A stretch of 62,999 bases of DNA, from the NCBI GenBank assembly GCA_001792535.1, contig MGGS01000014.1:1-62999 (forward strand), read 5' to 3'. Below, in pieces: positions 5,264-62,999 of this stretch. Source of the DNA: Candidatus Woesebacteria bacterium RIFCSPHIGHO2_02_FULL_42_20. Its GTDB lineage: Bacteria > Patescibacteriota > Microgenomatia > UBA8517. Made by a program: the position numbers and the translations under genes. The notes under the pieces are model-generated. The model worked only from the letters and a program-made list of their open reading frames with translations, was not told where the DNA came from and made no database searches. Position 1 is the stretch's first letter; each line of letters opens with the position of its first letter.

Positions 5264-5800
5264 TTATTTATGATCAGGTTGTCTAAATCGCCAAATATAA
5301 ATAACTAAGCGCAACAGGACAAAAAGTGCAGTAATCTCTAAAAGTCTTCCTGCCAGTCCCGAATGGTTAACCAAATAAAAAAAGGCCGAAGCGACCAATA
5401 GAAACAGGAAAACCCCAAGCCACACAAATTCTCCGACTTTAACTCTTTTAATAAATCCCAAATAAACCAGATCTTTCACCATGCCTGTAATTAATAACAA
5501 TAACATAATATTAAAAGCAAACTTTGAAAATTCAACGGAAACTATAAATGTAACAACCCCAACCAGATAAGAAACTGTCGCAAGCTTATAGAAAACTTTT
5601 ACGCTTATCTTAAACTTGTAAATTGCAATAAGCATTAAGTACAAGATAACCATATAAAAATACGGTAAGACGGATGCACTTGAGCTTACAAACAGCAAGT
5701 ACAGCTTGATAACCAAAATACAGACCACAAAAACAACTCCAACTACCCACAAAAAAGGGGTGGCGAGAGTTTTACTTAGTGAAATAAGTCTTTTTAGCAT
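5264..5800 (-). CDS. small integral membrane protein, function unknown
   Basis: About 178 aa with 5-6 hydrophobic helices. The track start (5812) is TTG. The ATG at 5798-5800 overlaps the upstream gene's end by 29 nt. I recognise no motif. Confidence 0.5.
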   Translation of the reverse strand: MLKRLISLSKTLATPFLWVVGVVFVVCILVIKLYLLFVSSSASVLPYFYMVILYLMLIAIYKFKISVKVFYKLATVSYLVGVVTFIVSVEFSKFAFNIMLLLLITGMVKDLVYLGFIKRVKVGEFVWLGVFLFLLVASAFFYLVNHSGLAGRLLEITALFVLLRLVIYIWRFRQPDHK

Positions 5801-44576: not shown

Positions 44577-45332
44577 CTATTTTAGCGCGGTTTTGCCCTT
44601 TTTGCTCTCGGCAAAGTAATGTGAGGGATAGATTGTGACTTCGTCCTCCAAAGTATCGTTTTTAATTTTGGCAACGATTGTGTGAGCAAGCCAGGACGGG
44701 TCCAAATACTTCTTTCCCTTTTTTTGACTCGCCAGCTTATCTTCCAACGACAGCGGACCGAATGCTGTCAGGACACTTCCCAAAGTCAGATGACAAAATT
44801 GAATATTAGTCTTTTTATATTCTTTTGCCAAACTTAACATTAGCCCACGGAGGGCAAATTTACTCGTGCAATAGGCTGATCTTTTAGCCATAGCAACCCT
44901 TCCCATACCGCTTCCTGTACTTAAAACACAAGCTTTTTGAGACTTTTTAAGTAAGGGGAGTAATTTTTGAATAAGCAAAAACGGTGCCGTAACATTTACT
45001 TCGAGAGACCTCTGCCATTCATCAAGTTTAATTTCTGGAAGCGGTTTATAAACTCCTACTCCTGCAGCGTTAATTAAAACATCAACTTGTTTATGGTCCT
45101 TGTTAAGGACAGAAACGAATTTCTCTACCGAGCCGGATTTGGTCAGATCGCATTCAAACACGTCTACTTTTGCACCAAGTTTTTCGGTTTCCTGTTTTAG
45201 AGAATCCAATATAACTTTTCTTCTCGCAACCAAAACCAAGTTGACCTTTTCTTTTGCAAAAGCCTTGGTGATTTCCCTGCCTATTCCTCCCGTCGCCCCG
45301 GCGATTACTACAACTTTATTTTTAAGATCCAT
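44577..45332 (-). CDS. SDR-family oxidoreductase
   Basis: 251 aa with IAGATGGIGRE, NAAG and YCTSK. Confidence 0.85.
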   Translation of the reverse strand: MDLKNKVVVIAGATGGIGREITKAFAKEKVNLVLVARRKVILDSLKQETEKLGAKVDVFECDLTKSGSVEKFVSVLNKDHKQVDVLINAAGVGVYKPLPEIKLDEWQRSLEVNVTAPFLLIQKLLPLLKKSQKACVLSTGSGMGRVAMAKRSAYCTSKFALRGLMLSLAKEYKKTNIQFCHLTLGSVLTAFGPLSLEDKLASQKKGKKYLDPSWLAHTIVAKIKNDTLEDEVTIYPSHYFAESKKGKTALK

Positions 45333-45333
45333 A

Positions 45334-45798
45334 CTACAATCTTACAGTTTTACATCCTTCTTCGCCATAAAGTTTTTGGTTGAAGTATTTAATGAAAGTC
45401 GGCTGAATTTTGTAAACTCTGGAGCTGATTATTTTTTCCTTCATACTTTTAACATTTACAACTCCCTCCATTCCAGGCGCTGCCCGATGCCACATTTTCA
45501 AAAGTACTTTTGTTCTCTCCCAACCTTTTACTTGACTCGCAACTCCCTGAGCTTGGATACCCACTTTTTTAGCCGAGTTTGGTGTGTGCGAATCGGCAAC
45601 ATTGACAGCGACTTTGCTGTTCTTTTCAATATCTTTACAGTGCTTTGATTTAGGTGAGCTAACAAAATAGAAATTCAGGTCATTATCAACAGCAAAATAC
45701 ACTGTCGCAACCCATGGTTTATCTGCACAAGTCGCCAAAGTCATCAACCGCTGACTTTTCAGGTATTTCGAGAACTCTTTCTTAATATCTTTATTCAT
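45334..45798 (-). CDS. pyridoxamine 5'-phosphate oxidase-like FMN-binding protein
   Basis: About 154 aa. The pattern MTLATC..KPWVATVYFAVDNDLNFYFVS..SKHCKDIEKNSKVAVNV is typical of the split-barrel family. The track start is TTG; the ATG lies at 45796-45798. Confidence 0.6.
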   Translation of the reverse strand: MNKDIKKEFSKYLKSQRLMTLATCADKPWVATVYFAVDNDLNFYFVSSPKSKHCKDIEKNSKVAVNVADSHTPNSAKKVGIQAQGVASQVKGWERTKVLLKMWHRAAPGMEGVVNVKSMKEKIISSRVYKIQPTFIKYFNQKLYGEEGCKTVRL

Positions 45799-46342
45799 TT
45801 TCAATCAATTTTAACAGAAAAGGAAATTTTTTATACTCTGGACCCTTTTCAAGATTGAAATGGCCTTGGCCTTCTTTGATTATTAACTCCCCATTCAAAT
45901 TTTTGGCCAGCATTTTCGCCTGACTCAAAGGAGTATAAGGATCATTATCCGAGTGAATCAAAATAAACTTTTTTGAGTGCCTTTTTATTTTTTTCCAATC
46001 GTACTTATAGTCAAAAAGTTCACTGTTTGCCTCCCAGTCAGATTTTATAAACGCACTAACAAAAATGCACATACTTACGATTACGTCATCCGGCAATTCT
46101 TGCAAAATGGCCCATATAGTCGCCGGGCTTGAGGAATGCCCGACCAGAACAGAATCTCTGTCAAATTTCCATTTTCTCTTGAAAATATAATCTACATTTT
46201 CCGAAACTCGGGGTTTTTCGGATTTTGGCAATTTTGGCACCCAAACTTTATATCCCTTTTTGACCAGCTCACTTTCTAACCATCGAAACCAGTTACCATC
46301 AGGGCTTCCCATCGTCCCGTGCAAAATCAGCGCATTTTTCAT
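45791..46342 (-). CDS. RBBP9/YdeN-like alpha/beta serine hydrolase
   Basis: 183 aa with ALILHGTMGSPDGNWF, VGHSSSP (an atypical nucleophile elbow), HSDNDPY and GQGHF. It is a paralog of 52300-52833. Confidence 0.6.
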   Translation of the reverse strand: MKNALILHGTMGSPDGNWFRWLESELVKKGYKVWVPKLPKSEKPRVSENVDYIFKRKWKFDRDSVLVGHSSSPATIWAILQELPDDVIVSMCIFVSAFIKSDWEANSELFDYKYDWKKIKRHSKKFILIHSDNDPYTPLSQAKMLAKNLNGELIIKEGQGHFNLEKGPEYKKFPFLLKLIENE

Positions 46343-46886: not shown

Positions 46887-47186
46887 ATGCCTACTATACC
46901 ACAATCACTCCAAGGTGTTTTATGGTCACGTAAAATTAAAAATCTGGATCTTAAAAAGGATAAAAATTATATAATCCACCAAGTTTTAGCATACGGAACG
47001 TGGGAAGACCTCAAATGGCTTTTTAAAACCTACTCAAGGTTACAAATTAAAAACATTTTTCTAAAATATCCCGCCAAAGATTACAAACCGGTGGTTTTTA
47101 ACTTCGTTACCAAAATCCTACTTGGCTTAAAACAATACCCCGACCAGCAAAAATATGTCACAACTTATCCTCGCATCATTGAATAA
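46887..47186 (+). CDS. small conserved protein, putative partner/antitoxin of the downstream nucleotidyltransferase
   Basis: 99 aa. LWSRKIKNLDLKKDKNYIIHQVLAYGTWEDLKWLFKTY resembles short proteins I recall upstream of AbiEii-like genes (possibly DUF6922). It overlaps the next gene by 32 nt. Confidence 0.45.
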   Translation: MPTIPQSLQGVLWSRKIKNLDLKKDKNYIIHQVLAYGTWEDLKWLFKTYSRLQIKNIFLKYPAKDYKPVVFNFVTKILLGLKQYPDQQKYVTTYPRIIE

Positions 47187-47793
47187 AAACAGGTTTAAAG
47201 TTTTTAATAAATTAAGAGCTTTTAAAAATATGGGGGTGCTCGGTGGTGGTACGGCTTTAGCCCTGCAAGTCGGTCATAGAGTTTCCTTTGACTTCGATAT
47301 TTTTTCCTACCACGCGTTACCTGGCCATTTATGGAAAGATGCCAAAAAAGTTTTAGGGCAAGATTGCGAAAAGCTGCTGGACTTTGAGGATCAACTGAAT
47401 TTAATAACTCCAGGGGGTGTTGAGGTAACTTTTTTCCATGACGAATATCAGCCTCTCTTCAAAGCAATAAAAACTAACTTCATCGACCTCATGGATCTTC
47501 GGGATATAGCCTGTAATAAAGCTTATATTATTGGGAGAAGACCCAAATGGAGAGACTATGTAGATATATATTTTCTACTCAAAGATAAAAAAATATCTTT
47601 AGATCAACTTTTAAAGTTATCGATAAGGAAATTTAAAAACGATTTCTCTAAGCGCCTATTCCTACAACAACTTGTTTATTATAGTGATATTACTGACTAT
47701 AAAATAGAGTTTCTAAAGGATGAAATATCACCAGATAAGATTAAAGTCTTCCTAGAAGGAGAAGTAAGCAGATACAAAACGAGAGAGCTGTAA
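47155..47793 (+). CDS. AbiEii/AbiGii-family nucleotidyltransferase (toxin-like)
   Basis: 212 aa. The N-terminal GGGTALALQVGHRVSFDFDIF matches the GGTAL..R.S.D.D NTase motif of AbiEii. Confidence 0.6.
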   Translation: MSQLILASLNKNRFKVFNKLRAFKNMGVLGGGTALALQVGHRVSFDFDIFSYHALPGHLWKDAKKVLGQDCEKLLDFEDQLNLITPGGVEVTFFHDEYQPLFKAIKTNFIDLMDLRDIACNKAYIIGRRPKWRDYVDIYFLLKDKKISLDQLLKLSIRKFKNDFSKRLFLQQLVYYSDITDYKIEFLKDEISPDKIKVFLEGEVSRYKTREL

Positions 47794-47794
47794 T

Positions 47795-49339
47795 TTAATC
47801 AGTAACAATGCCAACGGCTTCGGAAATGTTTTTAAAGCCTTTCCTTTCCATTATATCCAATAGTTCAAAATTAATCTGGTTAACCAGTTGCGGGCCTTCG
47901 TAAACTAATCCTGTTATTAATTGCACAAGCGACGCTCCAAGTGTAATTTTCTCCCACGCATCCCGGCCACTGAATACTCCGCCGCAACCGATGATTATAA
48001 ACCTGTCCCTGTAATGTTTATAAGCAAGCTTTATAAGTTCGTTGCTTCTTTTGTAAGTCGGTTTACCGCTAAAACTGCCTACTTTAAACTTTTTTACTTC
48101 TTCTTTAACAAGCGCCGGGTCGTTCCTGTCCTTTTGCAGGTTGCCAAAAATCACGCCCTTGGGGCAGCGCTTCGCAATCACTTCCAACATCTCTAGCACT
48201 TCAGTGTCGTTTTTTTCAATCGGCATTTTGGCAAAAATCGGTTTTTTGATTCTTAGTTTATCAACTGCTTTCAGAAGTTCTTCCAAATTTTTCGGAGGAT
48301 AAAACGCCACATTTCCGTGAATCAAGTTAGGACAACTGATATTCAATTCGTAGTAAGAATTATTAACGTGCGCTTTCTCAAAAGTTTCAAAAGCTTGAAC
48401 AATATCTTTGATGCTGTCTTTCTGATTGGATAACTTGGGAGAATTTGTCCGTCCGATACTTATTCCGACCGGAATCTTGAAATCTAATCCCTTCAATCTG
48501 CTCGCAACATTTATTGCGCCTGAGCTTTTAAAACCTTTATTTACCATCAAAGATTTGGACATTGGAAGGCGCCCAAGCATAGGTTTGGGATTTCCCTCGT
48601 AGGGCATATTGGTCACTGTCCCGACACTCATAAAACCAAAATTAAGTGACGGCAGAAATTGAGTCAACCGGGCTTCATAATCAAAACCGGCAGCCAAACC
48701 AATAGGATTACCGAAGCCGATTCCGTAAATTTTTTGGCTAAGCCGCGTGTTTTTGCTCTTCAAAAAGATTTCAGCAGTTTTTTTAATTAAATTAGATTTT
48801 CCTGCAAATTCGCCTGCAACAAGCATGTTATTGTGAACAGCCTCAGGATCAATTAGAAATAAAATATTTTTAATAAAATGCTTATACAGCACATTAATTT
48901 TTATCGCAGCCAGTCTTTTTCTCTCCCCACTAAATTTAGTCCAGATAAAATAAAATAAACCGAAACTGATCAGGGCCGACGCCGTACAGTACAAACAAAT
49001 CGAACCTATTACAAAAAACTGTAAATACATCAAATACACAGACACTACTAATCCGACCAAAGTTTGAAGTAAACTCAAATATCTAAATATTTTTTTACCC
49101 GCTTTAATACTCAACACAACAAATCCCATCAACACCAGATAATTAACCAACCCAACCAGTGCAAGCGGGATACCGAAAACTACAGAATACTGGCTGTTTA
49201 ACACTTTCCCACAATCAATAAAAATATTTGTTGAGCAGGGTGGGATTGAATTTGAATAATGCTCCCAAGTCAGGTAGGCGGTATCCAAAATCCCAAAAAA
49301 AACCAATGAAATAATAACTTTAAACTTATTAAATTTCAT
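47795..49339 (-). CDS. pyrD: VKOR domain fused to dihydroorotate dehydrogenase (class-2-like)
   Basis: 514 aa. Residues 1-~135 form four TM helices with loop Cys35/Cys43 (PPCSTNIFIDCGKVLNSQYS) and CLYC (aa 115-118, nt 48986-48997), which I read as a VKOR signature. Residues ~150-514 are DHODH: LIDPEAVH, GLAAGFD, GTVTNMPYEGNPKPMLGRL, NKGFKSSG, ELNISCPN (nt 48326-48343) and IIGCGGV..GASLVQL. Confidence 0.8.
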   Translation of the reverse strand: MKFNKFKVIISLVFFGILDTAYLTWEHYSNSIPPCSTNIFIDCGKVLNSQYSVVFGIPLALVGLVNYLVLMGFVVLSIKAGKKIFRYLSLLQTLVGLVVSVYLMYLQFFVIGSICLYCTASALISFGLFYFIWTKFSGERKRLAAIKINVLYKHFIKNILFLIDPEAVHNNMLVAGEFAGKSNLIKKTAEIFLKSKNTRLSQKIYGIGFGNPIGLAAGFDYEARLTQFLPSLNFGFMSVGTVTNMPYEGNPKPMLGRLPMSKSLMVNKGFKSSGAINVASRLKGLDFKIPVGISIGRTNSPKLSNQKDSIKDIVQAFETFEKAHVNNSYYELNISCPNLIHGNVAFYPPKNLEELLKAVDKLRIKKPIFAKMPIEKNDTEVLEMLEVIAKRCPKGVIFGNLQKDRNDPALVKEEVKKFKVGSFSGKPTYKRSNELIKLAYKHYRDRFIIIGCGGVFSGRDAWEKITLGASLVQLITGLVYEGPQLVNQINFELLDIMERKGFKNISEAVGIVTD

Positions 49340-51413: not shown

Positions 51414-52190
51414 CTAAAATTGTAACAAGCTAATTAAATCATCAAGATCGATCTCTGGCCTAAGTCTTTTTGTTCTATGGCTCGTTTGCATTGTATCAGT
51501 AAGTGGAATAATACTTCGAATATCAAATGTTCTCCCTCTTCGTATTTTTGTTGCAAGATTGGGATCACCCCTAGTTGTAAAACTCAAGTCGACTCCTGTT
51601 CTTCTAACTACATCGGCATAAAAAACGTTCATATCCTCTGTAACATCCCTCGGTGGAATCATCCCGGTATACCCGACATACGGCCAGTAGTCCCAAAGTG
51701 ATAAGATTACCGTTCTTGGCAAAAAAGGTCTTCTTCTTCCTGGATTTTGCCCAAAATAAGAATCAGGCTCAAATAAATAAACAACTTTGTCGACAACACC
51801 GCTCATATATTCCGCCGCACTTCGATGGCCGGCATGGCCTTCGCCCGTTGCAAGTAAAAGAACTCCACTCGTAAGCCCGTGACTACGGTCAACTTCGACA
51901 GCGGCAGCCAAATCAACCAAATTCCTTTGCAGTTTCACCGAAGGAGTTAAAGTGGTACTTTCCGGAGAGAATTTACTCAAGTGGTTTATCCAAAAATTTA
52001 ACCAGTCCCTCAAACCTTCTCGTCTTTGGTTCAAATGTGGGCCGGGTACTGTTGACAAAAATTCTGATGCTTCTGCCAACGCAACACCCAAGTAACCGGG
52101 AGAGATTACCATCCTGTTTTGGACCATCTCGTCAAGGGTTAGTCCGCCCAAAACTTCAGGTCTAAAATCACTTAAGTATTCCGGAGCCAT
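51414..52190 (-). CDS. nucleotidyltransferase-superfamily (HxGH, cytidylyltransferase-like) protein with N-terminal extension
   Basis: 258 aa. LLLATGEGHAGHRSAAEYM..VVYLFEPD resembles the G-x-x-x-x-H-x-G-H plus beta-strand pattern. C-terminal TMQTSHRTKRL resembles the ISxTxIR motif. The gene is visibly GC-richer than its neighbours. Confidence 0.35.
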   Translation of the reverse strand: MAPEYLSDFRPEVLGGLTLDEMVQNRMVISPGYLGVALAEASEFLSTVPGPHLNQRREGLRDWLNFWINHLSKFSPESTTLTPSVKLQRNLVDLAAAVEVDRSHGLTSGVLLLATGEGHAGHRSAAEYMSGVVDKVVYLFEPDSYFGQNPGRRRPFLPRTVILSLWDYWPYVGYTGMIPPRDVTEDMNVFYADVVRRTGVDLSFTTRGDPNLATKIRRGRTFDIRSIIPLTDTMQTSHRTKRLRPEIDLDDLISLLQF

Positions 52191-52299
52191 TGATCAGATT
52201 ATACCCTCTCTTTCAAGCACCGATTATATAATCAAATTGCTATGATTGTTCACATTGAAATGGACGCTGGGTCAATAGGGATAGATTTTGAAGACAACG
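52191..52299 (-). promoter_or_regulatory. promoter region of 51414-52190, -10 box 7 nt from the start codon
   Basis: The minus strand reads ..GAGAGGGTATAATCTGATCA-ATG. TATAAT is the complement of 52198-52203, and exactly 7 nt separate it from the ATG (52188-52190). Confidence 0.4.
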
Positions 52300-52833
52300 C
52301 TATGCATATTTAAGAAGTTGTGGTATTTTTACTACACCGTCTTTTTTAGTAAAATGGCCTGAATCTTTAATTAGAATAAATTTCCCTTTTAATCTTTTGC
52401 TCATTTGCTCAGTTACGACAGCTGTTGTATACGGGTCATTATCTGAAGATACACAATAGATTTCTTTAACATTTTTCTTTATTTTCGAATGATTAATTTT
52501 ATTCTTCCAAAACAAACGATGTCGTGGCTCTGTTAAATCGTCAAAATCCCAACCTGCAACCAGAAACATTTTCTGATATTTATATCTTTCGGCTAACCTC
52601 AAGGCCAAAATTGCCCCTAAACTGTGGCCGATAATTACCGTACTTTCGTCAATTCTGAAATTTTTCTCGACGAACTTTATTTGCTTTTGCATGTCAGGAA
52701 GTTTTGTGTCCATCGTCGGCAACTCGGGAATATAAACCTTGTATCCTTTCTTCTCCAATTCTTTTTTTAGCCATGGGTACCAATTATCATCCGGATTATT
52801 AAACCACCCCTCCAAGATCAGTGCTTTTCTCAC
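52300..52833 (-). CDS. RBBP9/YdeN-like alpha/beta serine hydrolase
   Basis: 177 aa with a GTG start. Motifs are ALILEGWFNNPDDNWYPW, GHSLGA (GxSxG), SSDNDPY and DSGHF. Confidence 0.65.
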   Translation of the reverse strand: MRKALILEGWFNNPDDNWYPWLKKELEKKGYKVYIPELPTMDTKLPDMQKQIKFVEKNFRIDESTVIIGHSLGAILALRLAERYKYQKMFLVAGWDFDDLTEPRHRLFWKNKINHSKIKKNVKEIYCVSSDNDPYTTAVVTEQMSKRLKGKFILIKDSGHFTKKDGVVKIPQLLKYA

Positions 52834-52841
52834 AGCTTTAA

Positions 52842-53828
52842 CTACTTAATAATACTTTCAATATCTTGTATAGTCTTTTCGTCAACATCGACAAAACCGC
52901 TTTTCATGGTTCGATTGCGAATTCCTATTTTATTTTCACCGGGAATCCGAATCTTTTCACCACTAACAGACTTTGAGTTTCTCACCCTGCCAACCAGCTT
53001 CTCTACTTTTTCCTTAAACTTACCAGTACTAGTTAACAGGCCGGGATCAATCACGATAAACAAATTTCCCCAACCGTCACCGTCTTTTAAATCCAGATAT
53101 TGCGCACCCGGAAACACTCCAGCAAGAATTTCGACCATCATTGCAAGACCGTAACCTTTGTATGAATTATCGAAGGTTAAAAACGCCCCTTCAAGCGCCT
53201 CGCTTGGATCTGTGGTCATTTTCCCTTGCCTATCAATTGCAACATTCTCAGGAAGTTTTTCACCAAGATTTTTTGCCCGTGCTACCGCTCCATAACTTAT
53301 GGCTGCAGTTGCCATATCAAAAATCAAAGGGCTCCCCTTTTTGGGAATACCGAATGAAATTGGATTGGTTCCAAACAATCTGTCCAGCCCTCCGTGAGGA
53401 GCAACGTCCGAAGGAGCCCTTGCCATCACGATTGCAATCAAATCTTCATTAGCTATCTTTTCTAGATAATAAGTAAGACACCCTGAAGAACTGGTCGAGT
53501 CTTTGCTGCCCACAATACCAATACCGTATTTTTTACCAAGCTTAATAACCGCTTGGCAGGCAATTGCTCCAATTAACATACCGGGGTTACCTTTCCCTTG
53601 GATTAGTTCTGAGTTTCTTGATCTTTTTACTACTGAAGGATAGCCTTTGGGCTTCCGCGAAAGAATATTTTCACCAGATGAGCATATCCTGATAATTCCG
53701 TGAGATTTTGTGTTTGACAACTCCCCAAACATAATAATTGGAGTCATTAAGTCAACCGCCCTTTTGTCGTATTTTGTAAACAGAGCTTTACGTACTACCT
53801 TTTCCAGTTCTTTAATTTTTATTTTCAT
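52842..53828 (-). CDS. Ldh_2-family (malate/L-lactate/sulfolactate dehydrogenase type 2) oxidoreductase
   Basis: 328 aa with SHGIIR, GTNPISFGIP, ISYGAVARA and YKGYGLAMMVEILAG. Confidence 0.7.
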   Translation of the reverse strand: MKIKIKELEKVVRKALFTKYDKRAVDLMTPIIMFGELSNTKSHGIIRICSSGENILSRKPKGYPSVVKRSRNSELIQGKGNPGMLIGAIACQAVIKLGKKYGIGIVGSKDSTSSSGCLTYYLEKIANEDLIAIVMARAPSDVAPHGGLDRLFGTNPISFGIPKKGSPLIFDMATAAISYGAVARAKNLGEKLPENVAIDRQGKMTTDPSEALEGAFLTFDNSYKGYGLAMMVEILAGVFPGAQYLDLKDGDGWGNLFIVIDPGLLTSTGKFKEKVEKLVGRVRNSKSVSGEKIRIPGENKIGIRNRTMKSGFVDVDEKTIQDIESIIK

Positions 53829-54756
53829 TTTTTAGTTTCCTAAAATTACCAACCAGTCCAACATTTGTTATCCTAAAATGTTGTAAGGTCAACCAAAACA
53901 TTCCTCCTCCAATAAGCATTAGGCCTAAGTATTGATTTAGTGTCGGTACTTCTTTTAGAATCAAAATCGAACCGAGGAAAGAAATAGCAACCGACAAAGG
54001 AAGTATTGCCGATGCTTTTGATAGCGGTAACCTAGCCAATCCTTGATGCCACAGGAAAAAATCAAAAGCTCTAAAAATCAAGCCAAAAATAACTATATTA
54101 AAAAGATTATTAAAACTTGATAGTTGCGTTATATCGGCCGGGTTAGATATTAAAGCAACAATTGTAACAATCAACCCTCCATACAGAAGCCTGGAGACTA
54201 TAATAAAGTTTGGGTCTTTCAATCTAACAAGTATTTTCTTCATTATTACATGAGAAAGCTGAAAAAATAATGGAACCGTAACCAGAAACAAATCTCCAAT
54301 ATTTACAGCCGAGAGCCCTTTATAGGCAACTACCATCGCACCAAAAACCATTATAATTGTGGAAAACAATTGGTCTTTTTTAATAACTTCGTGTAATAAG
54401 ATTGCAGAAAGTATTACCGAGTAGACCGGTTCTATTTGGATAATAAGCCCTGTATTTATCCCACTCGATAACCTTGTTCCCGAGAAAAATGCCATACTGC
54501 CAAGAGCTGTCAGCAGGGCAATCATAAGAAGTGGTTTTAAGTAAAGTGCAGAATACATTGTGTTAAACTTTTTTTGTTTTGCAAGCAAGACTGTAAACGG
54601 GAGAGACCCAACCAGCATTGCCAATCCAGCAAATAGTAAAGGGTTCATTGTATATGAAAATTTATGGGCAAAGACCGGGAATAACCCATAAATAAACATG
54701 TCAGCTACAACTAAGAAATACCCTAAATTAACCGACTTTGAAAATTTATTTTTCAT
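53812..54756 (-). CDS. DMT-superfamily (EamA-like) transporter
   Basis: 314 aa with ten hydrophobic helices arranged as two similar halves. It has an ATGA overlap with the upstream GT2. Confidence 0.65.
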   Translation of the reverse strand: MKNKFSKSVNLGYFLVVADMFIYGLFPVFAHKFSYTMNPLLFAGLAMLVGSLPFTVLLAKQKKFNTMYSALYLKPLLMIALLTALGSMAFFSGTRLSSGINTGLIIQIEPVYSVILSAILLHEVIKKDQLFSTIIMVFGAMVVAYKGLSAVNIGDLFLVTVPLFFQLSHVIMKKILVRLKDPNFIIVSRLLYGGLIVTIVALISNPADITQLSSFNNLFNIVIFGLIFRAFDFFLWHQGLARLPLSKASAILPLSVAISFLGSILILKEVPTLNQYLGLMLIGGGMFWLTLQHFRITNVGLVGNFRKLKNENKN

Positions 54757-55625
54757 TTCTTGTTATTATACTCCCCAGTCCAGTATTTAAAGTAAGAAAT
54801 TGGGAAATGCCAGGCGGAAAAAACCGACCAGACAAAGCCGTACATTCCGTCGAGGAAACCTTTGTGGCGAATATATAACTTCAGAAATGTGAATAGTGGT
54901 TTGTGGATGGTGTAAAGAGCGAGATAAAACAAATTCTTGGGAACTTTTTCGTCAGCAAGCTCTTGGGCCTGCAAGTCGGTGTAGCGGTTAAGTCGTGCTA
55001 TATAGCGAGCGAGTGTCGGTGAATCGGTGTGAATCAAATCATTAAACAACCATGCCACTTCTCCGTCTATTATCATCTGCTCATGAACGGATTTTGCCGG
55101 AAGCCTTGCCTTTCCTTGTTTAATTAAACGAATTACGGCATCAGGATAAACTCCGGCATGGATTAAGGGTTTGCCCAAAAACAGGTTTCTGCGGGGAATA
55201 AAAAAAGCGACGACTTCGCCTGTATTTTTGCCTAGTTTCCCATCCCGGGTTTCAATGACCCTTTGATGCCTCGCAAAAAGTCTCGCTTTTTTGCTGGATG
55301 GTGGATGGTGAATTGTGGATGGTGAATTAATAACCTCCCTAATCTCTTTTGCAAGTTCGGGAGTAACGCTCTCGTCTGCATCGAGTTGTAAAACCCATTC
55401 TCCTAAGGCCTTATCAATCGCCTTCTGTTTAGTTTTATGGAAAATCGGCTCGTGTGAAACAATAAAAACTTTAGCGCCGAATTTTTTTGCGATCTCGCGA
55501 GTTTTGTCAGTTGACTCTTCGTCAAAAACAATGATTTCTCCGGCAATGTCCTTTACTGACTCAAGACATCTGCCAATGTTTTCCTCTTCGTTTCTAGTGG
55601 CCAAAACAACTGAAAGCCTTTTCAT
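54753..55625 (-). CDS. glycosyltransferase family 2 (WaaE/KdtX-like)
   Basis: It has LSVVLATRNEEENI, IIVFDEESTDKT, LQLDADE, GVYPDAVIRL and two C-terminal hydrophobic helices. The track start at 55637 is TTG; the ATG at 55623-55625 lies 1 nt after the upstream stop. Confidence 0.8.
   Translation of the reverse strand: MKRLSVVLATRNEEENIGRCLESVKDIAGEIIVFDEESTDKTREIAKKFGAKVFIVSHEPIFHKTKQKAIDKALGEWVLQLDADESVTPELAKEIREVINSPSTIHHPPSSKKARLFARHQRVIETRDGKLGKNTGEVVAFFIPRRNLFLGKPLIHAGVYPDAVIRLIKQGKARLPAKSVHEQMIIDGEVAWLFNDLIHTDSPTLARYIARLNRYTDLQAQELADEKVPKNLFYLALYTIHKPLFTFLKLYIRHKGFLDGMYGFVWSVFSAWHFPISYFKYWTGEYNNKK
55301..55328 (-). repeat. perfect 14-nt tandem duplication inside the GT2 gene
   Basis: GTGGATGGTGAATT occurs at 55301-55314 and again at 55315-55328, preceded by the related CTGGATG (55294-55300). 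The two copies are read in different frames (NSPST / IHHPP). Confidence 0.9.
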
Positions 55626-55626
55626 T

Positions 55627-57255
55627 TCAATTTTCAACTACCCTAAAATACCTGAAACCATTTGTTCCATAAATATCCTTAATAACGTTCACGCCCTCCG
55701 GAATTTCTTCTTCCGTCCCTATTATAAGACTATTGGGATAATTTTCCCGCGTCTCATTAAACTTTATTGACTCAAATTTAAAATTGGCGAATTCCCGAAC
55801 AGTCGAGAAACCAAAATTATCGCGGGACGTCAGTGTGTGTTTATTTTGAAACTTCTCCGGAGGATACTTCAAATAAAATAAAAACAACACATATGGTTGG
55901 TCATATCTGTCCGTAACTATTATCCTGTCAAACTTCCCACTGATTTCTTTTACATAGGCTACCAACTCTTTTACTCCGTATTGTGACGAATACGGATACT
56001 CTTTAGCCATATGTACCCAGTACATGTGTAAATACCGGCTGGATTCCAAAGCAACAATCCCGAACACCATACACCATACACCGAGCACTAAAATTCTTTT
56101 CCCAAATATATATCTTATAAAATCAAAGAACTTTAATAGCCCGTATGCGGATATGATTGTCAACGGTATTACCATGTTTTGAGATCGCAGCGCATGCGGC
56201 GACTGAAAAGTCAATGCGGCGGCAACGGGCGAAACCAATAACCAATAGCTAATAACCAAGAACTTTTTATTGAGTTTTTTGACCATAAACCATAAACCAA
56301 CGACTAAAGCTATTAATTGGAACAAATATAATTGCCCTGTTTCCGGGGCTCTGTTTCTTTGAATGTCGTCCCCGGATAAAAACAAAAACTCACCCCAAAA
56401 ATGCTTTCCCCAGTTTTCCAAAAATGCGAGACTGTAGTTGACAATTTTATTGTGCAAAATTATTGACGGAAGCCCGACATGGTTCTCATGCTCACCCCTT
56501 TGCTCTTGTATTCTTGAAATAATTCCCTGATCAGCAAAAATTCCGACACCTTGCACACGAGAAAAGAAACTGCCACCTGATGTTTCCTTGATCAAAGGCA
56601 TTAGTAAAAAAAGACCGATGACCGCAGACACTACTAAACTTTTTTTATTTTTGAATATTTCTTTGGAGTAAATACCAAGAAGTCCAAAAACCAATAACGG
56701 AGTTATTATTCTCGCGGCATGATAAGTATATAAAGAAAGTACAAACAACGTACAACTTACAACTAAGTACTTTGAATTTTTTAAAGACTTGAAAAAGAAT
56801 AATAATCCGGACGTGATAAAAAATGTCGCAACATTTACTTCCCAACCACCGCGAGAAAAATGAATATGCCAAGGACTAATCACCAGCAGAGCCGGCGCCA
56901 TAATTTCCAATTTCCAATTTCCAATTTTCAATTGTTTAACTAATAAATACAAAACCAGAACTGTTCCTACGCCGGCTAAGGCTCCAGGAACTCTGACCGC
57001 CCAGACATTTAACCCTAAAGTCTTGACAAACGGTAAAACCAAGTAAACTAAAAGCCCCGGTTTATAGTCATTAAAAGATTGGAAACTAATTGGCCAAGGA
57101 TTCCCATGCTGATCCTTGCCTGTTTGAATAAGAGAATACGCGTCATAGCCGATAGAAGCTTCATCGGCATTTAAAGCGGGGTAATCTCCGAGTTGCCAAA
57201 AACGTAAAACAGTAACTAATAAAAGTATTAATATCAATAAAACTTTAGTTTTCAT
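55627..57255 (-). CDS. GT39-type ArnT/PMT-like GT-C glycosyltransferase (paralog 1 of 4)
   Basis: 542 aa. The first-loop motif is LNADEASIGYDAYSLIQTGKDQHGN..FQSFNDYKPGL. It is polytopic with a ~150-aa C-terminal soluble domain. Confidence 0.75.
   Translation of the reverse strand: MKTKVLLILILLLVTVLRFWQLGDYPALNADEASIGYDAYSLIQTGKDQHGNPWPISFQSFNDYKPGLLVYLVLPFVKTLGLNVWAVRVPGALAGVGTVLVLYLLVKQLKIGNWKLEIMAPALLVISPWHIHFSRGGWEVNVATFFITSGLLFFFKSLKNSKYLVVSCTLFVLSLYTYHAARIITPLLVFGLLGIYSKEIFKNKKSLVVSAVIGLFLLMPLIKETSGGSFFSRVQGVGIFADQGIISRIQEQRGEHENHVGLPSIILHNKIVNYSLAFLENWGKHFWGEFLFLSGDDIQRNRAPETGQLYLFQLIALVVGLWFMVKKLNKKFLVISYWLLVSPVAAALTFQSPHALRSQNMVIPLTIISAYGLLKFFDFIRYIFGKRILVLGVWCMVFGIVALESSRYLHMYWVHMAKEYPYSSQYGVKELVAYVKEISGKFDRIIVTDRYDQPYVLFLFYLKYPPEKFQNKHTLTSRDNFGFSTVREFANFKFESIKFNETRENYPNSLIIGTEEEIPEGVNVIKDIYGTNGFRYFRVVEN
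56064..56082 (-). repeat. heptanucleotide tandem repeat inside GT39 paralog 1
   Basis: ACACCAT ACACCAT ACACC, about 2.7 copies. This stretch encodes GVWCMV. Confidence 0.8.
56903..56930 (-). repeat. heptanucleotide tandem repeat inside GT39 paralog 1
   Basis: ATTTCCA x3 (56903-56923) is followed by ATTTTCA (56924-56930). This stretch encodes KIGNWKLEI. Confidence 0.85.
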
Positions 57256-58901
57256 CTAGTCTCAACAATTCTAAAAGCAACTTGCCCGTCCGGATAAGTC
57301 ACATCGTTTACCAATTTAAATTCAGGTATTCTAGTCAATATCTCTTCCGGCAAAGTAACGTAATTGGCAACTACCAAATACTTATTTTGATTACGCAGAT
57401 CTGGGATATTAATATCGGCAAACTCGATTTTCTCCAAACTCTTGACCAAACCGACATCCGGACCGGTCAAGACCAGGTTTGCTTGTTTTTGAAAAGTTGA
57501 AGGATCGTATTTTGCATAAAACAAAAAATACATATATGGCTGACTGTAGCTTTGCTGAAAAACTATTTTTGTATAATTTTCTCTAGCTGGCCAAATTTGC
57601 TGAACAACCTGTTCATAGCCATAGAACCAATACTTGGCGTTGTGAGTCGGCTGATGAACAAAATAGGAATCGAGAAAGTAAATAATATTTCCGAAATACA
57701 AAATACAAAATACGACATATACCAAACGCTTAAATTTAAATCTTCTAACAAATTCAAAAAACTGGATTACACCTAATGCAACTATAATAATCAACGAAAC
57801 TGCCATACTTAGGCTTCTGATTGAATTTACCTGATCACGAGAAACCGCCCCCGGTAAAGGAGCCAGGATCAGCCATGCCAAAACAAACCACTTAAATCGG
57901 GATTTGAATTTTACCAAATACATAAGACCTAGAATTAGCAATACAGAATCTAAAAGCAATAACATTCCGGCATTCGGCGGAGTGTGACCGGGATTTGCAT
58001 AGTCACCTTCAAAAAACAGAAATCTGGCAGAAAAGTAATTAAACCACCGGCCCATTACACCCCTTAGGAAGTTGAAAGTTTCCGAGTGAAACAAATAGTA
58101 ATTGATACCTCCGATTTTTTCTCCACCTTCGTCTAAAAAGTTTTGCATATAGTCAACCGGTCTTGGATAAGAAAAAACACTAAAGACTTCGAGTCTTCCT
58201 GCTTGACCATGCAGGAGACTCAGTATAATCGGTGCACAAATAAGTAGACCCAAAACCCCTGACGAAACCAAAACTTGCCGATCAATTTTTAATACAGATT
58301 TGAAATACACAATTACCAATACCGCAACTACAATTGTCGTTGACAATTTTGCTCCTTGGTAAGTCAAATACGTCAATGCCAAAAAACCGGATGACAGAAG
58401 CAAAAGTTTGCTGTATTTAAAAGATTTAAAAAAGAAATAAATGCCCGCCAGAGTAAGAGTTAGCGCTACATTTGCTTCCCAAGCACCGCGGGAAAAGTAA
58501 ATCAACCAAGGATTGACCGCAGCAAAAAAAGCCGCGGGAATTGCCAATTTCCAATTATCAGTTTTCAAACAAATTCTAAATATCAAAAATACCGATAAAA
58601 TACCAAAAAGGGCACTTGGAAGCCGAACGGCAAATTCCGTAAGCCCAAAGATGGCCACAAAGGGAACTGTCAAATATACATACAGACCTGGTTTATAATC
58701 ACCAAAGGATTTGAAAATGACAGGTAAAATCTGCCCATACTCGTCTTTACCTGTCTTTAATATAGAATAAGCATTGTATCCCAACGCCGCCTCGTCTGGC
58801 GTTAAATGCGGCGGATTACCGCCCAAATTCCAGAGGCGCAAGATTGCTGCAATAATAATTATTACTAATAAAATTATTTTTATAACAATGAATCGATTCA
58901 T
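57252..58901 (-). CDS. GT39-type ArnT/PMT-like GT-C glycosyltransferase (paralog 2 of 4)
   Basis: It has LTPDEAALGYNAYSILKTGKDEYGQ..FKSFGDYKPGL. The track start at 58913 is GTG; the ATG at 58899-58901 forms an ATGA overlap. Confidence 0.75.
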   Translation of the reverse strand: MNRFIVIKIILLVIIIIAAILRLWNLGGNPPHLTPDEAALGYNAYSILKTGKDEYGQILPVIFKSFGDYKPGLYVYLTVPFVAIFGLTEFAVRLPSALFGILSVFLIFRICLKTDNWKLAIPAAFFAAVNPWLIYFSRGAWEANVALTLTLAGIYFFFKSFKYSKLLLLSSGFLALTYLTYQGAKLSTTIVVAVLVIVYFKSVLKIDRQVLVSSGVLGLLICAPIILSLLHGQAGRLEVFSVFSYPRPVDYMQNFLDEGGEKIGGINYYLFHSETFNFLRGVMGRWFNYFSARFLFFEGDYANPGHTPPNAGMLLLLDSVLLILGLMYLVKFKSRFKWFVLAWLILAPLPGAVSRDQVNSIRSLSMAVSLIIIVALGVIQFFEFVRRFKFKRLVYVVFCILYFGNIIYFLDSYFVHQPTHNAKYWFYGYEQVVQQIWPARENYTKIVFQQSYSQPYMYFLFYAKYDPSTFQKQANLVLTGPDVGLVKSLEKIEFADINIPDLRNQNKYLVVANYVTLPEEILTRIPEFKLVNDVTYPDGQVAFRIVETR

Positions 58902-59524
58902 CGAAATATACACTTATCTAACAATTTCGATACACTCCCGAACTCTCCTTTTTCGGCTAACGCCAGACCCTGAATACGCCCTTCAAAATTTCTGAACTCT
59001 TTAATTAGTTTATTCATTGCCTTAATTCCCAAACTTTCATTTTCGAATTTAACTAAATTCATGTGAGGTCTATACAAATCCAAAACATAAGGATAACCAA
59101 ATTCCCTTATATTTATAGCTTCTGATTGCGAGTAAATCCCTTTTTCTATCTCCTCGTGATACTTTTCTCTCACGTGTCCCTCTCTAAGTAAATTAAGTTC
59201 TTTAACTAAATCTTCATGTATTTTCAAGATATCTTTTGTTTTTTTAAAGTTCACCCCCACATATCCCCAACCGCTTTCCAAGCCCTGAGACCACAGCTTA
59301 CTGCCATGCAACTTATTAGAATAATTTTTGAGGGAAGATCTAATCTTACTTAAATTCTTTACCGGGTATTCGGCGTGGTAGATTGTAATGTGTGGTAGGT
59401 GATCTACATCTAACTTGAATTGGCATTTACCAAATTTTTCAGCTTCATTCGCTAGTCTGTATGCAAGTTTTTCTGATCTTTCATCTAGTAAAAATAAGAC
59501 TCTTAGAGCGATAAATTTACTCAT
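58898..59524 (-). CDS. hypothetical protein, possible 2H-phosphoesterase (LigT-like) fold
   Basis: 208 aa. One clear H-x-T motif (LPHITIYH) is present. A second His motif is degenerate (RPHMNLV). ATGA overlaps occur on both sides. Confidence 0.3.
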   Translation of the reverse strand: MSKFIALRVLFLLDERSEKLAYRLANEAEKFGKCQFKLDVDHLPHITIYHAEYPVKNLSKIRSSLKNYSNKLHGSKLWSQGLESGWGYVGVNFKKTKDILKIHEDLVKELNLLREGHVREKYHEEIEKGIYSQSEAINIREFGYPYVLDLYRPHMNLVKFENESLGIKAMNKLIKEFRNFEGRIQGLALAEKGEFGSVSKLLDKCIFR

Positions 59525-62839: not shown

Positions 62840-62869
62840 TAACTAAATTATATCTGATATGATAATTTA
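62840..62869. promoter_or_regulatory. 30-bp divergent spacer with face-to-face -10-like boxes
   Basis: The minus-strand TATAAT (complement of 62847-62852) lies 7 nt before the GTG at 62839. On the plus strand, TATGAT/GATAAT (62858-62866) lies 3-6 nt before the ATG at 62870. Confidence 0.35.
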
Positions 62870-62999
62870 ATGCCCGATTTGGTCCTACTAACTATCTTTG
62901 TGGGTTTGTTTACACTCCTGAGTCCTTTTTACATGATACTTCGCAATAAAATGGTCCTGCAAGCAAAAAAAAGAAAACACCCTCTGAGTTATTACTCTA
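62870..62999 (+). CDS. 5' fragment of an unknown ORF (hydrophobic N-terminus)
   Basis: My translation from the ATG at 62870 reads MPDLVLLTIFVGLFTLLSPFYMILRNKMVLQAKKRKHPLSYYS.. and stays open to the window edge. Only 43 codons are visible. Confidence 0.3.
   Translation, partial: MPDLVLLTIFVGLFTLLSPFYMILRNKMVLQAKKRKHPLSYYS

What the first reader, a model, noticed from the sequence alone, without database searches (positions are those of the whole stretch)
47795..49339. Single ORF fusing a VKOR (quinone-dependent disulfide oxidoreductase) membrane domain to a class-2-like dihydroorotate dehydrogenase with a class-1-type Cys base
Residues 1-~135 have the hallmarks of bacterial VKOR homologs. There are four TM helices, a loop Cys pair (C35, C43 in PPCSTNIFIDCGKVLNSQYS) and a CxxC at the start of TM4 (CLYC, nt 48986-48997). 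The same ORF continues without a stop into a full DHODH. The DHODH retains the class-2-specific N-terminal helix region (LIDPEAVH, compare E. coli LDPERAH) and GNPKPMLGRL. However, it has Cys where class-2 enzymes have the catalytic Ser (ELNISCPN, nt 48326-48343; E. coli reads NISSPN). With four TM helices, the DHODH domain is predicted to be cytoplasmic, which is topologically sensible. Known VKOR fusions are to thioredoxin-like domains, and class-2 DHODHs normally use an amphipathic N-terminus to reach membrane quinone. I see three possibilities. First, VKOR may simply act as a quinone-presenting membrane anchor. Second, the two quinone-reducing activities may share one bound quinone. Third, pyrimidine synthesis may be linked to envelope disulfide chemistry in an organism that may lack a respiratory chain to re-oxidise quinol. 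I do not know of a described example.
Basis: partly seen in the sequence, partly recalled or inferred. Interest (0 to 1): 0.7.

Follow-up and report, generated by a model that had tools for sequence, protein, structure and literature searches.

The report
VKOR fused to Cys-type dihydroorotate dehydrogenase
One real, widely conserved gene of ultra-small (CPR/Microgenomates) bacteria joins a membrane disulfide-forming enzyme (VKOR) to the pyrimidine enzyme DHODH; I found no paper describing the fusion, and it most likely anchors DHODH in the membrane while both halves reduce the same quinone.

Summary
Window 47795-49339 (-) encodes one 514-aa protein. Residues 8-132 match Pfam VKOR (E 7e-29). 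Residues ~150-512 are a class-2-type DHODH that passes two NCBIfam cut-offs for quinone-dependent DHODH. The protein has Cys336 where class 2 enzymes have the catalytic Ser.

It is not a chimera. The identical protein lies on at least 24 contigs from independent assemblies, and the 120 best homologues (55-99% identity; named ones Roizmanbacteria and Woesebacteria) all carry both domains. The four VKOR cysteines and the loop Ser are invariant down to 38% identity. The junction has a fixed length (51 residues in 118/121). AlphaFold gives pTM 0.90, with TM4 running directly into the DHODH quinone-tunnel helices.

The Cys base is not specific to the fusion: it marks a whole CPR/DPANN clade that is mostly unfused, and anaerobic fungal class-II DHODs are a precedent. 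The same DHODH clade is also fused to PAP2 in Peregrinibacteria.

Best reading: a bifunctional protein in which an active VKOR also anchors DHODH, both reducing one membrane quinone in parallel. A serial electron relay is not excluded. No describing paper was found. It is a new variant of known kinds, of moderate interest.

The parts
47795..49339 (-). Single 514-aa ORF: VKOR-DHODH fusion protein
   Evidence: identical product on at least 24 contigs
48944..49318 (-). VKOR domain (residues 8-132): four TM helices at 5-29, 50-79, 83-111 and 116-135
   Evidence: Pfam PF07884 E 6.9e-29; PDB 4nv2/3kp9 E 2e-9; AF2 helices
49211..49237 (-). Extracytoplasmic loop Cys pair C35...C43, followed by the conserved VLxS Ser49
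   Evidence: C35 and C43 are 121/121 conserved and S49 is 119/121. They are also kept in all 24 divergent fused members and loci checked.
48986..48997 (-). CXXC redox motif CLYC (C115, C118) at the outer end of TM4
   Evidence: 121/121 conserved; aligns to CMYC of Synechococcus VKOR
48761..48931 (-). Rigid junction: helix 137-160 follows directly on TM4 and runs into the class-2 N-terminal (quinone-tunnel) helices 165-181 and 183-193. Y152, F161 and H169 are invariant.
   Evidence: AF2 secondary structure, pLDDT >90, pTM 0.90. The C118-to-H169 distance is 51 residues in 118/121 sequences. Alignment to class-2 DHODH starts at residue 152.
47849..48742 (-). DHODH catalytic (beta/alpha)8 barrel, residues 200-497
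   Evidence: PF01180 E 1.8e-50. Foldseek match to full-length M. tuberculosis class-2 DHODH 8ofw: TM 0.94 normalised to the target, rmsd 1.7.
48332..48334 (-). Cys336 (in NISCPN, nt 48326-48343) at the catalytic-base position, where canonical class 2 enzymes have Ser
   Evidence: Alignment to 6b8s NLSSPN; 120/121 Cys in the family; 126 Cys against 12 Ser among the best representatives

Best explanation
This is a bifunctional integral membrane enzyme of a Microgenomates-group CPR bacterium.

The N-terminal four-helix VKOR domain is still a working thiol oxidase. Its outward-facing loop cysteines (C35/C43) take electrons from a secreted DsbA/MdbA-type protein, pass them to C115-x-x-C118, and from there to a membrane quinone.

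The same domain also serves as the permanent membrane anchor of the cytoplasmic DHODH domain. TM4 continues, with no flexible linker, into the two N-terminal helices that form the acceptor tunnel of class-2 DHODHs. Dihydroorotate is oxidised at FMN with Cys336 as base, and the electrons leave to a membrane-borne acceptor, most likely the same quinone. CPR bacteria do not make quinone and probably scavenge it.

The two half-reactions therefore run in parallel into one quinone pool, not in series. The fusion gives anchoring, fixed geometry and co-expression of two quinone-dependent enzymes, much as the single N-terminal TM helix does for mitochondrial DHODH.

Shown: domain identity, conservation of the catalytic residues, the rigid junction, the distribution of the architecture, and the existence of unfused and PAP2-fused orthologues. 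Inferred: topology, quinone as the acceptor, the parallel mode, and the quinone's origin.
For: Both domains pass curated thresholds.

VKOR is under selection for redox function. All four Cys and the loop Ser are invariant in 121 sequences, and also in divergent fused members down to 38% identity.

The DHODH tunnel region is strongly conserved (Y152, F161 and H169 invariant; H169 corresponds to human His56), and the substrate-site Asn/Lys residues are invariant.

The junction length is fixed, and the model has pTM 0.90 and pLDDT 92.6.

For anchoring as the general logic:
- The same Cys-type DHODH clade is independently fused to the unrelated polytopic PAP2 domain in 9 clusters from Peregrinibacteria/Gracilibacteria.
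- Other representatives carry different N-terminal TM regions (P0241, P0218, P0224).
- Unfused orthologues at 47-60% identity exist in Levy-, Davies-, Curtiss-, Pacei- and Saccharibacteria, with no VKOR ORF within 10 kb.
- No redox partner gene is conserved next to the fusion.

Literature: VKOR and MdbA-like oxidoreductases are widespread in CPR (PMC6744442). CPR genomes lack quinone biosynthesis genes and most of the electron transport chain (PMC8407418).
Against: Nothing shows which acceptor the DHODH domain uses.

The Cys-type clade has changed two tunnel residues that are conserved in Ser-type enzymes. The human Tyr356 equivalent is Ile in 119/121. The Arg136 equivalent is Met in the window protein and splits 59 Met / 59 Arg in the family. 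Fungal Cys-type class-II enzymes work without respiration, and one uses free flavins.

If both domains only reduce quinone, something must re-oxidise quinol in an organism expected to lack a respiratory chain. No such enzyme was seen, though only 63 kb of the genome was visible.

VKOR-DHODH may have arisen more than once. The VKOR domain of P0149 is closer to stand-alone VKORs than to the main fused family, its linker is about 7 residues shorter, and it sits at a different place in the DHODH tree. That hints at a VKOR-specific advantage beyond anchoring.
Confidence: 0.55

Rival explanations
1. Serial redox conduit. Electrons from dihydroorotate go FMN -> quinone -> VKOR CXXC -> loop cysteines -> an extracytoplasmic disulfide or oxidant. 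VKOR would run opposite to its usual direction and give a bacterium without a respiratory chain an electron sink for pyrimidine synthesis.
For: Gene fusions often join consecutive partners. The junction is rigid and of fixed length, and the model has pTM 0.90. All redox cysteines are invariant. VKOR-DHODH fusion is possibly recurrent. CPR genomes lack quinone synthesis genes and most of the electron transport chain, so quinol needs a sink. By textbook potentials, the overall reaction of DHO (about -250 mV) with a DsbA-type disulfide (about -120 mV) is downhill (own knowledge).
Against: No VKOR or DsbB is known to run physiologically from quinol to disulfide, and the menaquinol-to-disulfide step is uphill (own knowledge). 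Unfused orthologues and the PAP2 fusion show that this DHODH clade works without a covalently attached VKOR. The two quinone sites lie in opposite membrane leaflets (inference).
Confidence: 0.15
2. The DHODH domain no longer uses quinone. Like the anaerobic fungal Cys-type class-II enzymes, it hands electrons to another acceptor (free flavin, fumarate at the pyrimidine site, or O2). VKOR would be an unrelated activity that merely shares the polypeptide.
For: The Cys base is linked to respiration-independent activity in fungi, and ArUra9 uses free FMN/FAD (PMC8520639). The Tyr356 and Arg136 equivalents are not conserved in the Cys-type clade, whereas every Ser-type representative keeps Arg and 11 of 12 keep Tyr. 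CPR genomes lack quinone biosynthesis genes.
Against: The N-terminal tunnel helices are among the best conserved parts (Y152, F161, E166, H169), and they are welded to a membrane domain. The flavin-using fungal enzyme, by contrast, has lost 76-81 N-terminal residues and is cytosolic. Repeated fusion to membrane proteins argues for a membrane-borne acceptor.
Confidence: 0.2
3. The VKOR domain is only a degenerate hydrophobic anchor with no redox activity.
For: The PAP2 and other TM fusions show that any polytopic domain can serve as the anchor.
Against: C35, C43, C115 and C118 are 100% conserved and S49 about 98%, across 121 sequences and all divergent fused lineages. The full-length VKOR HMM matches positions 2-133 of 134.
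Confidence: 0.05
4. Assembly chimera, or a frameshift joining two adjacent genes.
For: None found.
Against: The identical 514-aa product is found in 35 blocks, with at least 24 contigs read, including separate NCBI and ENA assemblies. There are 120 homologous clusters with the same architecture. The junction region is conserved and of fixed length. The gene's GC equals the window's.
Confidence: 0.01

Closest known systems
Mitochondrial class 2 DHODH (human DHODH, e.g. PDB 1d3g)
   Same: The layout is the same: an N-terminal transmembrane anchor, then the two-helix tunnel domain with the conserved His (human His56 = H169), then the FMN barrel. Sequence match E 3e-37 over residues 153-510. Foldseek TM about 0.88 normalised to the target.
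   Different: The anchor here is a complete four-helix VKOR enzyme rather than a single helix. The catalytic base is Cys, not Ser. The Tyr356 equivalent is Ile, and the Arg136 equivalent is Met in this protein.
Bacterial class 2 DHODH (E. coli PyrD 1f76, H. pylori 6b8s, M. tuberculosis 8ofw)
   Same: These are the best sequence and structure matches (E 1e-34 to 7e-42; TM 0.94 to 8ofw). The amphipathic N-terminal helices are retained.
   Different: Those enzymes are monotopic, unfused and Ser-based.
Anaerobically active fungal class-II DHODs with a Cys base (SjUra9, DbUra9, ArUra9; PMC8520639)
   Same: They combine a class-2 sequence type with Cys at the catalytic-base position, and they come from organisms of anoxic habitats that do not rely on a respiratory chain.
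   Different: They are eukaryotic and not fused to VKOR. ArUra9 has lost the N-terminal domain and is cytosolic. No direct relationship to them was tested here.
Bacterial VKOR homologues (Synechococcus VKOR-Trx 3kp9/4nv2; M. tuberculosis and Actinomyces oris VKOR)
   Same: Four-helix core, loop Cys pair, loop Ser, and CXXC at the TM4 start. VKOR is widespread in CPR, often next to MdbA-like genes.
   Different: The known fusions are to thioredoxin-like domains carried outside by a fifth TM helix (PMC4555120). Here there are four TM helices, and the partner is a cytoplasmic flavoenzyme that is not a thiol-disulfide protein.
PAP2-DHODH fusion of Peregrinibacteria/Gracilibacteria
   Same: The same Cys-type DHODH clade is fused at the same point, just before the tunnel helices, to a polytopic membrane enzyme.
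   Different: The partner is a PAP2-superfamily (phosphatase-type) domain with no redox or quinone chemistry, and the family is much smaller.

Membership tests
VKOR family (Pfam PF07884) | Profile match above the curated threshold over the whole core | tested here: met
   101.1 bits against a cut-off of 27.5; profile positions 2-133 of 134
VKOR family (Pfam PF07884) | Four-transmembrane-helix bundle | tested here: met
   AF2 helices 5-29, 50-79, 83-111 and 116-135, with block-mean pLDDT mostly above 80 (59 in the 31-40 loop block); hydropathy segments
VKOR family (Pfam PF07884) | Four conserved cysteines (loop pair plus CXXC at TM4) and a conserved loop Ser/Thr | tested here: met
   C35, C43, C115 and C118 are 121/121 conserved and S49 is 119/121. 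They align to the Synechococcus cysteines.
VKOR family (Pfam PF07884) | Thiol-to-quinone oxidoreductase activity / re-oxidation of a DsbA- or MdbA-like partner | not testable with these tools
   Needs dsbB complementation or an enzyme assay
Class 2 (quinone-dependent, membrane-associated) DHODH | Sequence membership: closer to class 2 than to class 1, and passes the equivalog cut-offs | tested here: met
   NF003652 273.1 against 267; TIGR01036 219.8 against 200. PDB class 2 matches at E 1e-34 to 7e-42, against class 1A at about 1e-16 or weaker.
Class 2 (quinone-dependent, membrane-associated) DHODH | N-terminal two-helix extension forming the acceptor tunnel, with the conserved His | tested here: met
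   Alignment starts at residue 152. Helices 165-181 and 183-193 are present and H169 is invariant. TM 0.94 to full-length M. tuberculosis DHODH.
Class 2 (quinone-dependent, membrane-associated) DHODH | Serine as catalytic base | tested here: not met
   Cys336 occupies the position and is Cys in 120/121 family members. The protein is therefore filed as 'class-2-like, Cys-type', not as a canonical class 2 enzyme.
Class 2 (quinone-dependent, membrane-associated) DHODH | Conserved polar tunnel residues (human Arg136 and Tyr356 equivalents) | tested here: not met
   Position 254 is Met here (59 Met / 59 Arg in the family). Position 475 is Ile in 119/121. Ser-type representatives have Arg in 12/12 and Tyr in 11/12.
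Class 2 (quinone-dependent, membrane-associated) DHODH | Respiratory quinone as the physiological electron acceptor | not testable with these tools
   Needs an enzyme assay or complementation in quinone-deficient hosts
Class 1 DHODH (1A fumarate-dependent / 1B NAD-dependent) | Cysteine as catalytic base | tested here: met
   NISCPN matches the class-1 motif. The pattern ELNISCPN also retrieved many loci aligning at only 24-30% identity from about residue 200 and lacking the extension, presumably class 1 (not classified individually).
Class 1 DHODH (1A fumarate-dependent / 1B NAD-dependent) | Soluble protein without the N-terminal extension; class-1 sequence type | tested here: not met
   The extension is present. 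The class 1 models score far below their cut-offs (TIGR01037 87 against 270; PRK07259 82 against 269).

The most novel reading that the evidence does not exclude
The fusion is a self-contained transmembrane electron conduit. Dihydroorotate oxidation in the cytoplasm is coupled, through one scavenged quinone and the VKOR cysteines running in reverse, to the reduction of extracytoplasmic disulfides or oxidants. This would give CPR bacteria, which lack a respiratory chain and quinone synthesis, a dedicated sink for the one obligatory oxidation step of pyrimidine synthesis. It would also be the first VKOR-family protein working as a quinol:disulfide reductase.
Probability: 0.13. Interest if true: 0.85.

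Novelty: new variant of a known kind. Interest (0 to 1): 0.55.

Why it matters
CPR/Patescibacteria are thought to lack respiratory chains and quinone biosynthesis, yet this lineage keeps two enzymes of quinone-dependent families and has welded them into one polypeptide. That makes a concrete question testable with a single clonable gene: do these ultra-small episymbionts carry, presumably steal, and recycle membrane quinones, and what accepts the electrons of pyrimidine synthesis and of disulfide-bond formation?

The work also defines a large, unnoticed Cys-type branch of class-2-like DHODHs in CPR/DPANN. This branch parallels the anaerobic fungal enzymes and blurs the textbook 'class 1 = Cys, class 2 = Ser' rule. 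Finally, database annotation as plain 'quinone-dependent DHODH' hides the VKOR half.

Tried and rejected
- Chimera or frameshift: rejected.
- 'Cys base is specific to the fusion': rejected.
- 'One quinone shared in a common pocket': judged unlikely from topology only. Model coordinates and PAE were not available, so inter-site distances could not be measured (one search shows no model file).
- Search for a conserved operon partner (Dsb/Trx, pyr, quinone or quinol-oxidase genes). None is in the 63-kb window, which is a surface-glycan cluster, nor in the 10-kb flanks of two other fused loci.
- Taxon census of the fusion in GTDB genomes. The first scan was swamped by loci lacking the N-terminal extension, presumably class 1, that share NISCPN. 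The VKOR-region alignment was too variable to seed a scan. A single-sequence scan found one locus.
- Cluster look-up returned no organism names.
- Two contig look-ups with TTG/GTG-start ORFs found nothing.
- A VKOR-only search with the divergent P0149 domain returned only six stand-alone VKORs. This allows only a weak statement about independent fusion events.
- The NJ tree is crude and has no support values. It was used only to note that fused and unfused forms interleave.
- The promoter/terminator scan around the gene found no more than chance.
- Seven literature searches found no description of the architecture. The library lacks most subscription-journal papers.
Full report
**1. The observation**

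The window holds one uninterrupted ORF at 47795..49339 on the minus strand: ATG start, 514 aa. Pfam calls VKOR (PF07884) on residues 8-132 (E 6.9e-29, nearly the whole profile) and DHO_dh (PF01180) on residues 200-497 (E 1.8e-50). NCBIfam places the C-terminal 360 residues in quinone-dependent (class 2) DHODH. Two models are above their curated cut-offs (NF003652, 273.1 against 267; TIGR01036, 219.8 against 200). Both alignments begin at about residue 151, so they include the class-2 N-terminal extension. Class 1 models score far below their cut-offs.

Against solved structures, the DHODH part matches class 2 enzymes at E 1e-34 to 7e-42 (H. pylori 6b8s, M. tuberculosis 8ofw, human 1d3g, E. coli 1f76). 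Class 1A enzymes match at only about 1e-16 or weaker. The printed alignment puts the query's NISCPN on NLSSPN/NVSSPN, so Cys336 occupies the position of the catalytic Ser.

The VKOR part alone matches Synechococcus VKOR (4nv2/3kp9, E 2e-9). C35/C43 fall on the loop cysteine pair, VLNS on VLSS, and CLYC on CMYC.

Nt 48326-48343 cover only NISCPN; ELNISCPN is 48326-48349.

**2. The fusion is real**

- The identical 514-aa product is recorded in 35 blocks of the assembly collection. 24 contigs were read, many of them 50 kb to 1 Mb, and they include separate ENA and NCBI assemblies.
- The 120 best homologue clusters (55-99% identity, about 500-580 aa) all carry PF07884 plus PF01180. The named ones are Candidatus Roizmanbacteria and Woesebacteria, annotated simply as (quinone-dependent) dihydroorotate dehydrogenase.
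- The gene's GC (0.379) equals the window's (0.38).
- In an exhaustive search of 50%-identity representatives, about 8-10 full-length clusters plus a dozen fragments carry both domains, down to 38% identity.

**3. Anatomy**

- *Model.* An AlphaFold model built on 64 family members is very confident: mean pLDDT 92.6, pTM 0.90. It has four long helices (5-29, 50-79, 83-111, 116-135). A helix at 137-160 follows TM4 after a one-residue break and runs into the two helices (165-181, 183-193) that form the acceptor tunnel in class 2 DHODHs. The barrel comes after that.
- *Structural match.* Foldseek superposes the model on full-length M. tuberculosis class 2 DHODH with TM 0.94 normalised to the target and rmsd 1.7 Å.
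- *Topology.* Lys/Arg residues cluster at the N-terminus, in the 80-86 loop and after TM4. By the positive-inside rule this gives an N-in/C-in topology, with the cysteines outside and DHODH in the cytoplasm. This is an inference.
- *Junction.* The distance from C118 to H169 is 51 residues in 118 of 121 sequences. Almost no indels occur between residues 120 and 205.
- *VKOR conservation.* C35, C43, C115 and C118 are conserved in 121/121 sequences, and S49 in 119/121. The same five residues are kept in all 24 divergent fused proteins and loci checked.
- *DHODH conservation.* Y152, F161 and H169 (the human His56 equivalent) are invariant. So are the Asn/Lys residues of the pyrimidine site: N250, N333, N338, N400, K371.
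- *Tunnel differences.* Two polar tunnel residues of canonical class 2 enzymes are not kept. The Arg136 equivalent is Met in this protein (59 Met / 59 Arg in the family). The Tyr356 equivalent is Ile in 119/121.

**4. The Cys base belongs to a clade, not to the fusion**

Among the 150 best representatives, 126 have Cys and 12 have Ser at the base position; the rest are fragments. Most Cys-type proteins are unfused, 350-390 aa long, and begin at the tunnel helices.

Named members come from Peregrini-, Gracili-, Davies-, Curtiss-, Woyke-, Levy-, Pacei- and Saccharibacteria and from Pacearchaeota. Loci with unfused orthologues at 47-60% identity have no VKOR ORF within 10 kb.

In this clade the Tyr356 equivalent is mostly Ile/Val/Leu. 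The Ser-type representatives have Tyr in 11 of 12.

There is a published precedent. Fungal class-II DHODs with Cys in place of Ser support anaerobic, respiration-independent pyrimidine synthesis. The Cys is essential for this in SjUra9, and ArUra9 uses free FMN/FAD (PMC8520639).

**5. Other fusions of the same DHODH clade**

- P0146 is PAP2 plus DHO_dh, joined at the same point before the tunnel helices. It is a conserved small family: 9 clusters at 80-86% identity, from several assemblies of Peregrinibacteria/Gracilibacteria.
- Other representatives carry unrelated N-terminal TM regions (P0241, P0218, P0224) or a C-terminal cytidylyltransferase-like domain (P0140).
- In a crude NJ tree, fused and unfused forms interleave.
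- The divergent fused protein P0149 has a linker about 7 residues shorter. Its VKOR domain is more similar to stand-alone 140-150-aa VKORs than to the main fused family. VKOR-DHODH may therefore have arisen more than once, but this evidence is weak.

**6. Context**

The window is a large surface-glycan cluster of glycosyltransferases, methyltransferases and polysaccharide synthases. It contains no pyr, quinone, Dsb/Trx or oxidase genes. Neighbours of the fused gene are not conserved in two other genomes.

From the literature: VKOR and MdbA-like thiol-disulfide oxidoreductases are widespread in CPR and often adjacent (PMC6744442). CPR genomes lack quinone biosynthesis genes and most of the electron transport chain, although some have a bo3 quinol oxidase (PMC8407418).

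**7. Mechanism**

My best reading (confidence 0.55) is a bifunctional protein. The VKOR half is an active thiol-to-quinone oxidase facing outward. It also acts as a rigid membrane anchor that holds the DHODH acceptor tunnel at the inner leaflet. Both halves reduce the same membrane quinone, which is probably scavenged, and they do so in parallel.

Anchoring as the general logic rests on three things: the PAP2 fusion, the other TM fusions, and the existence of unfused orthologues. Retained VKOR chemistry rests on the invariant cysteines. A membrane-borne acceptor rests on the strong conservation of the tunnel helices and their repeated attachment to membrane domains. The flavin-using fungal enzyme, by contrast, has lost these helices.

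Rivals:
- *Serial conduit, DHO -> quinone -> VKOR cysteines -> outside (0.15).* It is attractive because quinol needs a sink and the junction is rigid. However, it requires VKOR to run against its known direction, and unfused orthologues exist.
- *Quinone-independent DHODH (0.2).* It is supported by the Cys/Ile signature and the fungal precedent.
- *Redox-dead anchor (0.05)* and *assembly artefact (0.01).* Both are essentially excluded.

The VKOR CXXC pocket lies at the outer end of TM4, and the DHODH tunnel lies at the cytoplasmic face.

**8. Comparison and novelty**

The protein works like a mitochondrial class 2 DHODH whose single TM anchor has been replaced by a complete bacterial VKOR.

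- It meets every sequence-testable VKOR criterion.
- It meets the class 2 DHODH criteria for sequence type and N-terminal domain.
- It fails the Ser-base criterion and two tunnel-residue criteria, so I file it as 'class-2-like, Cys-type'.
- Known VKOR fusions are to thioredoxin-like domains (PMC4555120).
- Seven full-text searches found no description of a VKOR-DHODH protein. The library misses most subscription-journal papers.

The architecture is visible in databases but annotated only as DHODH. Verdict: a real, common, uncharacterised new variant of known kinds, of moderate interest (0.55).

Noticed in passing
window 46887-47793 (+): A DUF6922 ORF (99 aa, 46887-47186) overlaps an AbiEii-like nucleotidyltransferase ORF (212 aa, 47155-47793; faint Pfam hit). 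They look like a toxin-antitoxin pair. The pair converges on the VKOR-DHODH gene with a 1-nt gap and has lower GC (0.34-0.35). It is absent from the partly syntenic Woesebacteria locus L086 (shared PNPOx_N and SDR genes), so it is probably a mobile insertion.
   Followed up: partly
window 1-45000 and 52000-62999: Almost the whole window is a cell-surface glycan cluster. It contains many GT2/GT4 glycosyltransferases, at least 6 SAM methyltransferases, PMT_2 and GT-C_AftD-like membrane glycosyltransferases, and Polysacc_synt flippases. Three large proteins have no Pfam hit: 1150 aa at 5772-9224, 900 aa at 2560-5262 and 707 aa at 21064-23187.
   Followed up: partly
window, whole length: GC skew is negative in all 31 consecutive 2-kb windows (-0.03 to -0.26; cumulative -4.78), and most genes lie on the minus strand. 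This is a strong strand compositional asymmetry. A paper listed (PMC7143001) reports unusual strand disparity in a Microgenomates genome; I did not read it.
   Followed up: no
P0146 and P0287-P0294 (related proteins, not in the window): A PAP2 (PF01569) + DHO_dh fusion of 519-550 aa is conserved at 80-86% identity in Peregrinibacteria/Gracilibacteria assemblies. It is a second, independent N-terminal fusion of the Cys-type DHODH to a polytopic membrane enzyme, and apparently also undescribed.
   Followed up: partly
representatives P0129-P0270 (one search list): Class-2-like DHODHs with a Cys base form a large clade that is mostly CPR/DPANN: 126 of the 138 best representatives with that position aligned. 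The Cys co-varies with loss of the tunnel Tyr (human Tyr356 equivalent becomes Ile/Val/Leu). A few look eukaryotic, with a targeting peptide and a single TM helix (P0218, P0224).
   Followed up: partly
P0140 (related protein): A Cys-type DHODH with a C-terminal cytidylyltransferase-like domain (PF01467), 497 aa. Only one representative was seen.
   Followed up: no
window 44577-45804 (-); L086 11570-12768: A PNPOx_N-type FMN-binding protein (154 aa) and a short-chain dehydrogenase lie just downstream of the fused gene in the Woesebacteria locus L086. The same pair lies about 2 kb downstream in the window, behind the inserted genes. The pair is absent in L085. This may be mere synteny.
   Followed up: no
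window 51414-52190 (-): A 258-aa ORF has no Pfam hit and a higher GC (0.432 against 0.38 for the window). It is conserved in the other assemblies of this organism.
   Followed up: no
L002, L005, L006, L012, L087 (genome contigs): Several loci carry the fused gene or a close unfused one, yet their records are titled 'uncultured Gammaproteobacteria/Pseudomonadales bacterium' (TPA co-assembly MAGs). One is a 950-kb contig. The titles may be mislabelled CPR genomes; I did not verify this.
   Followed up: no
VKOR domain residues 19 and 27 (window nt 49283-49285 and 49259-49261): An Asp in the middle of TM1 (D19, 119/121) and a His at its outer end (H27, 121/121) are conserved in the main fused family. 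Synechococcus VKOR has Leu at the D19 position and no His at the H27 position, and both residues are replaced in the divergent fused lineages P0134, P0138 and P0149. Their role is unknown; they may line the quinone pocket.
   Followed up: partly
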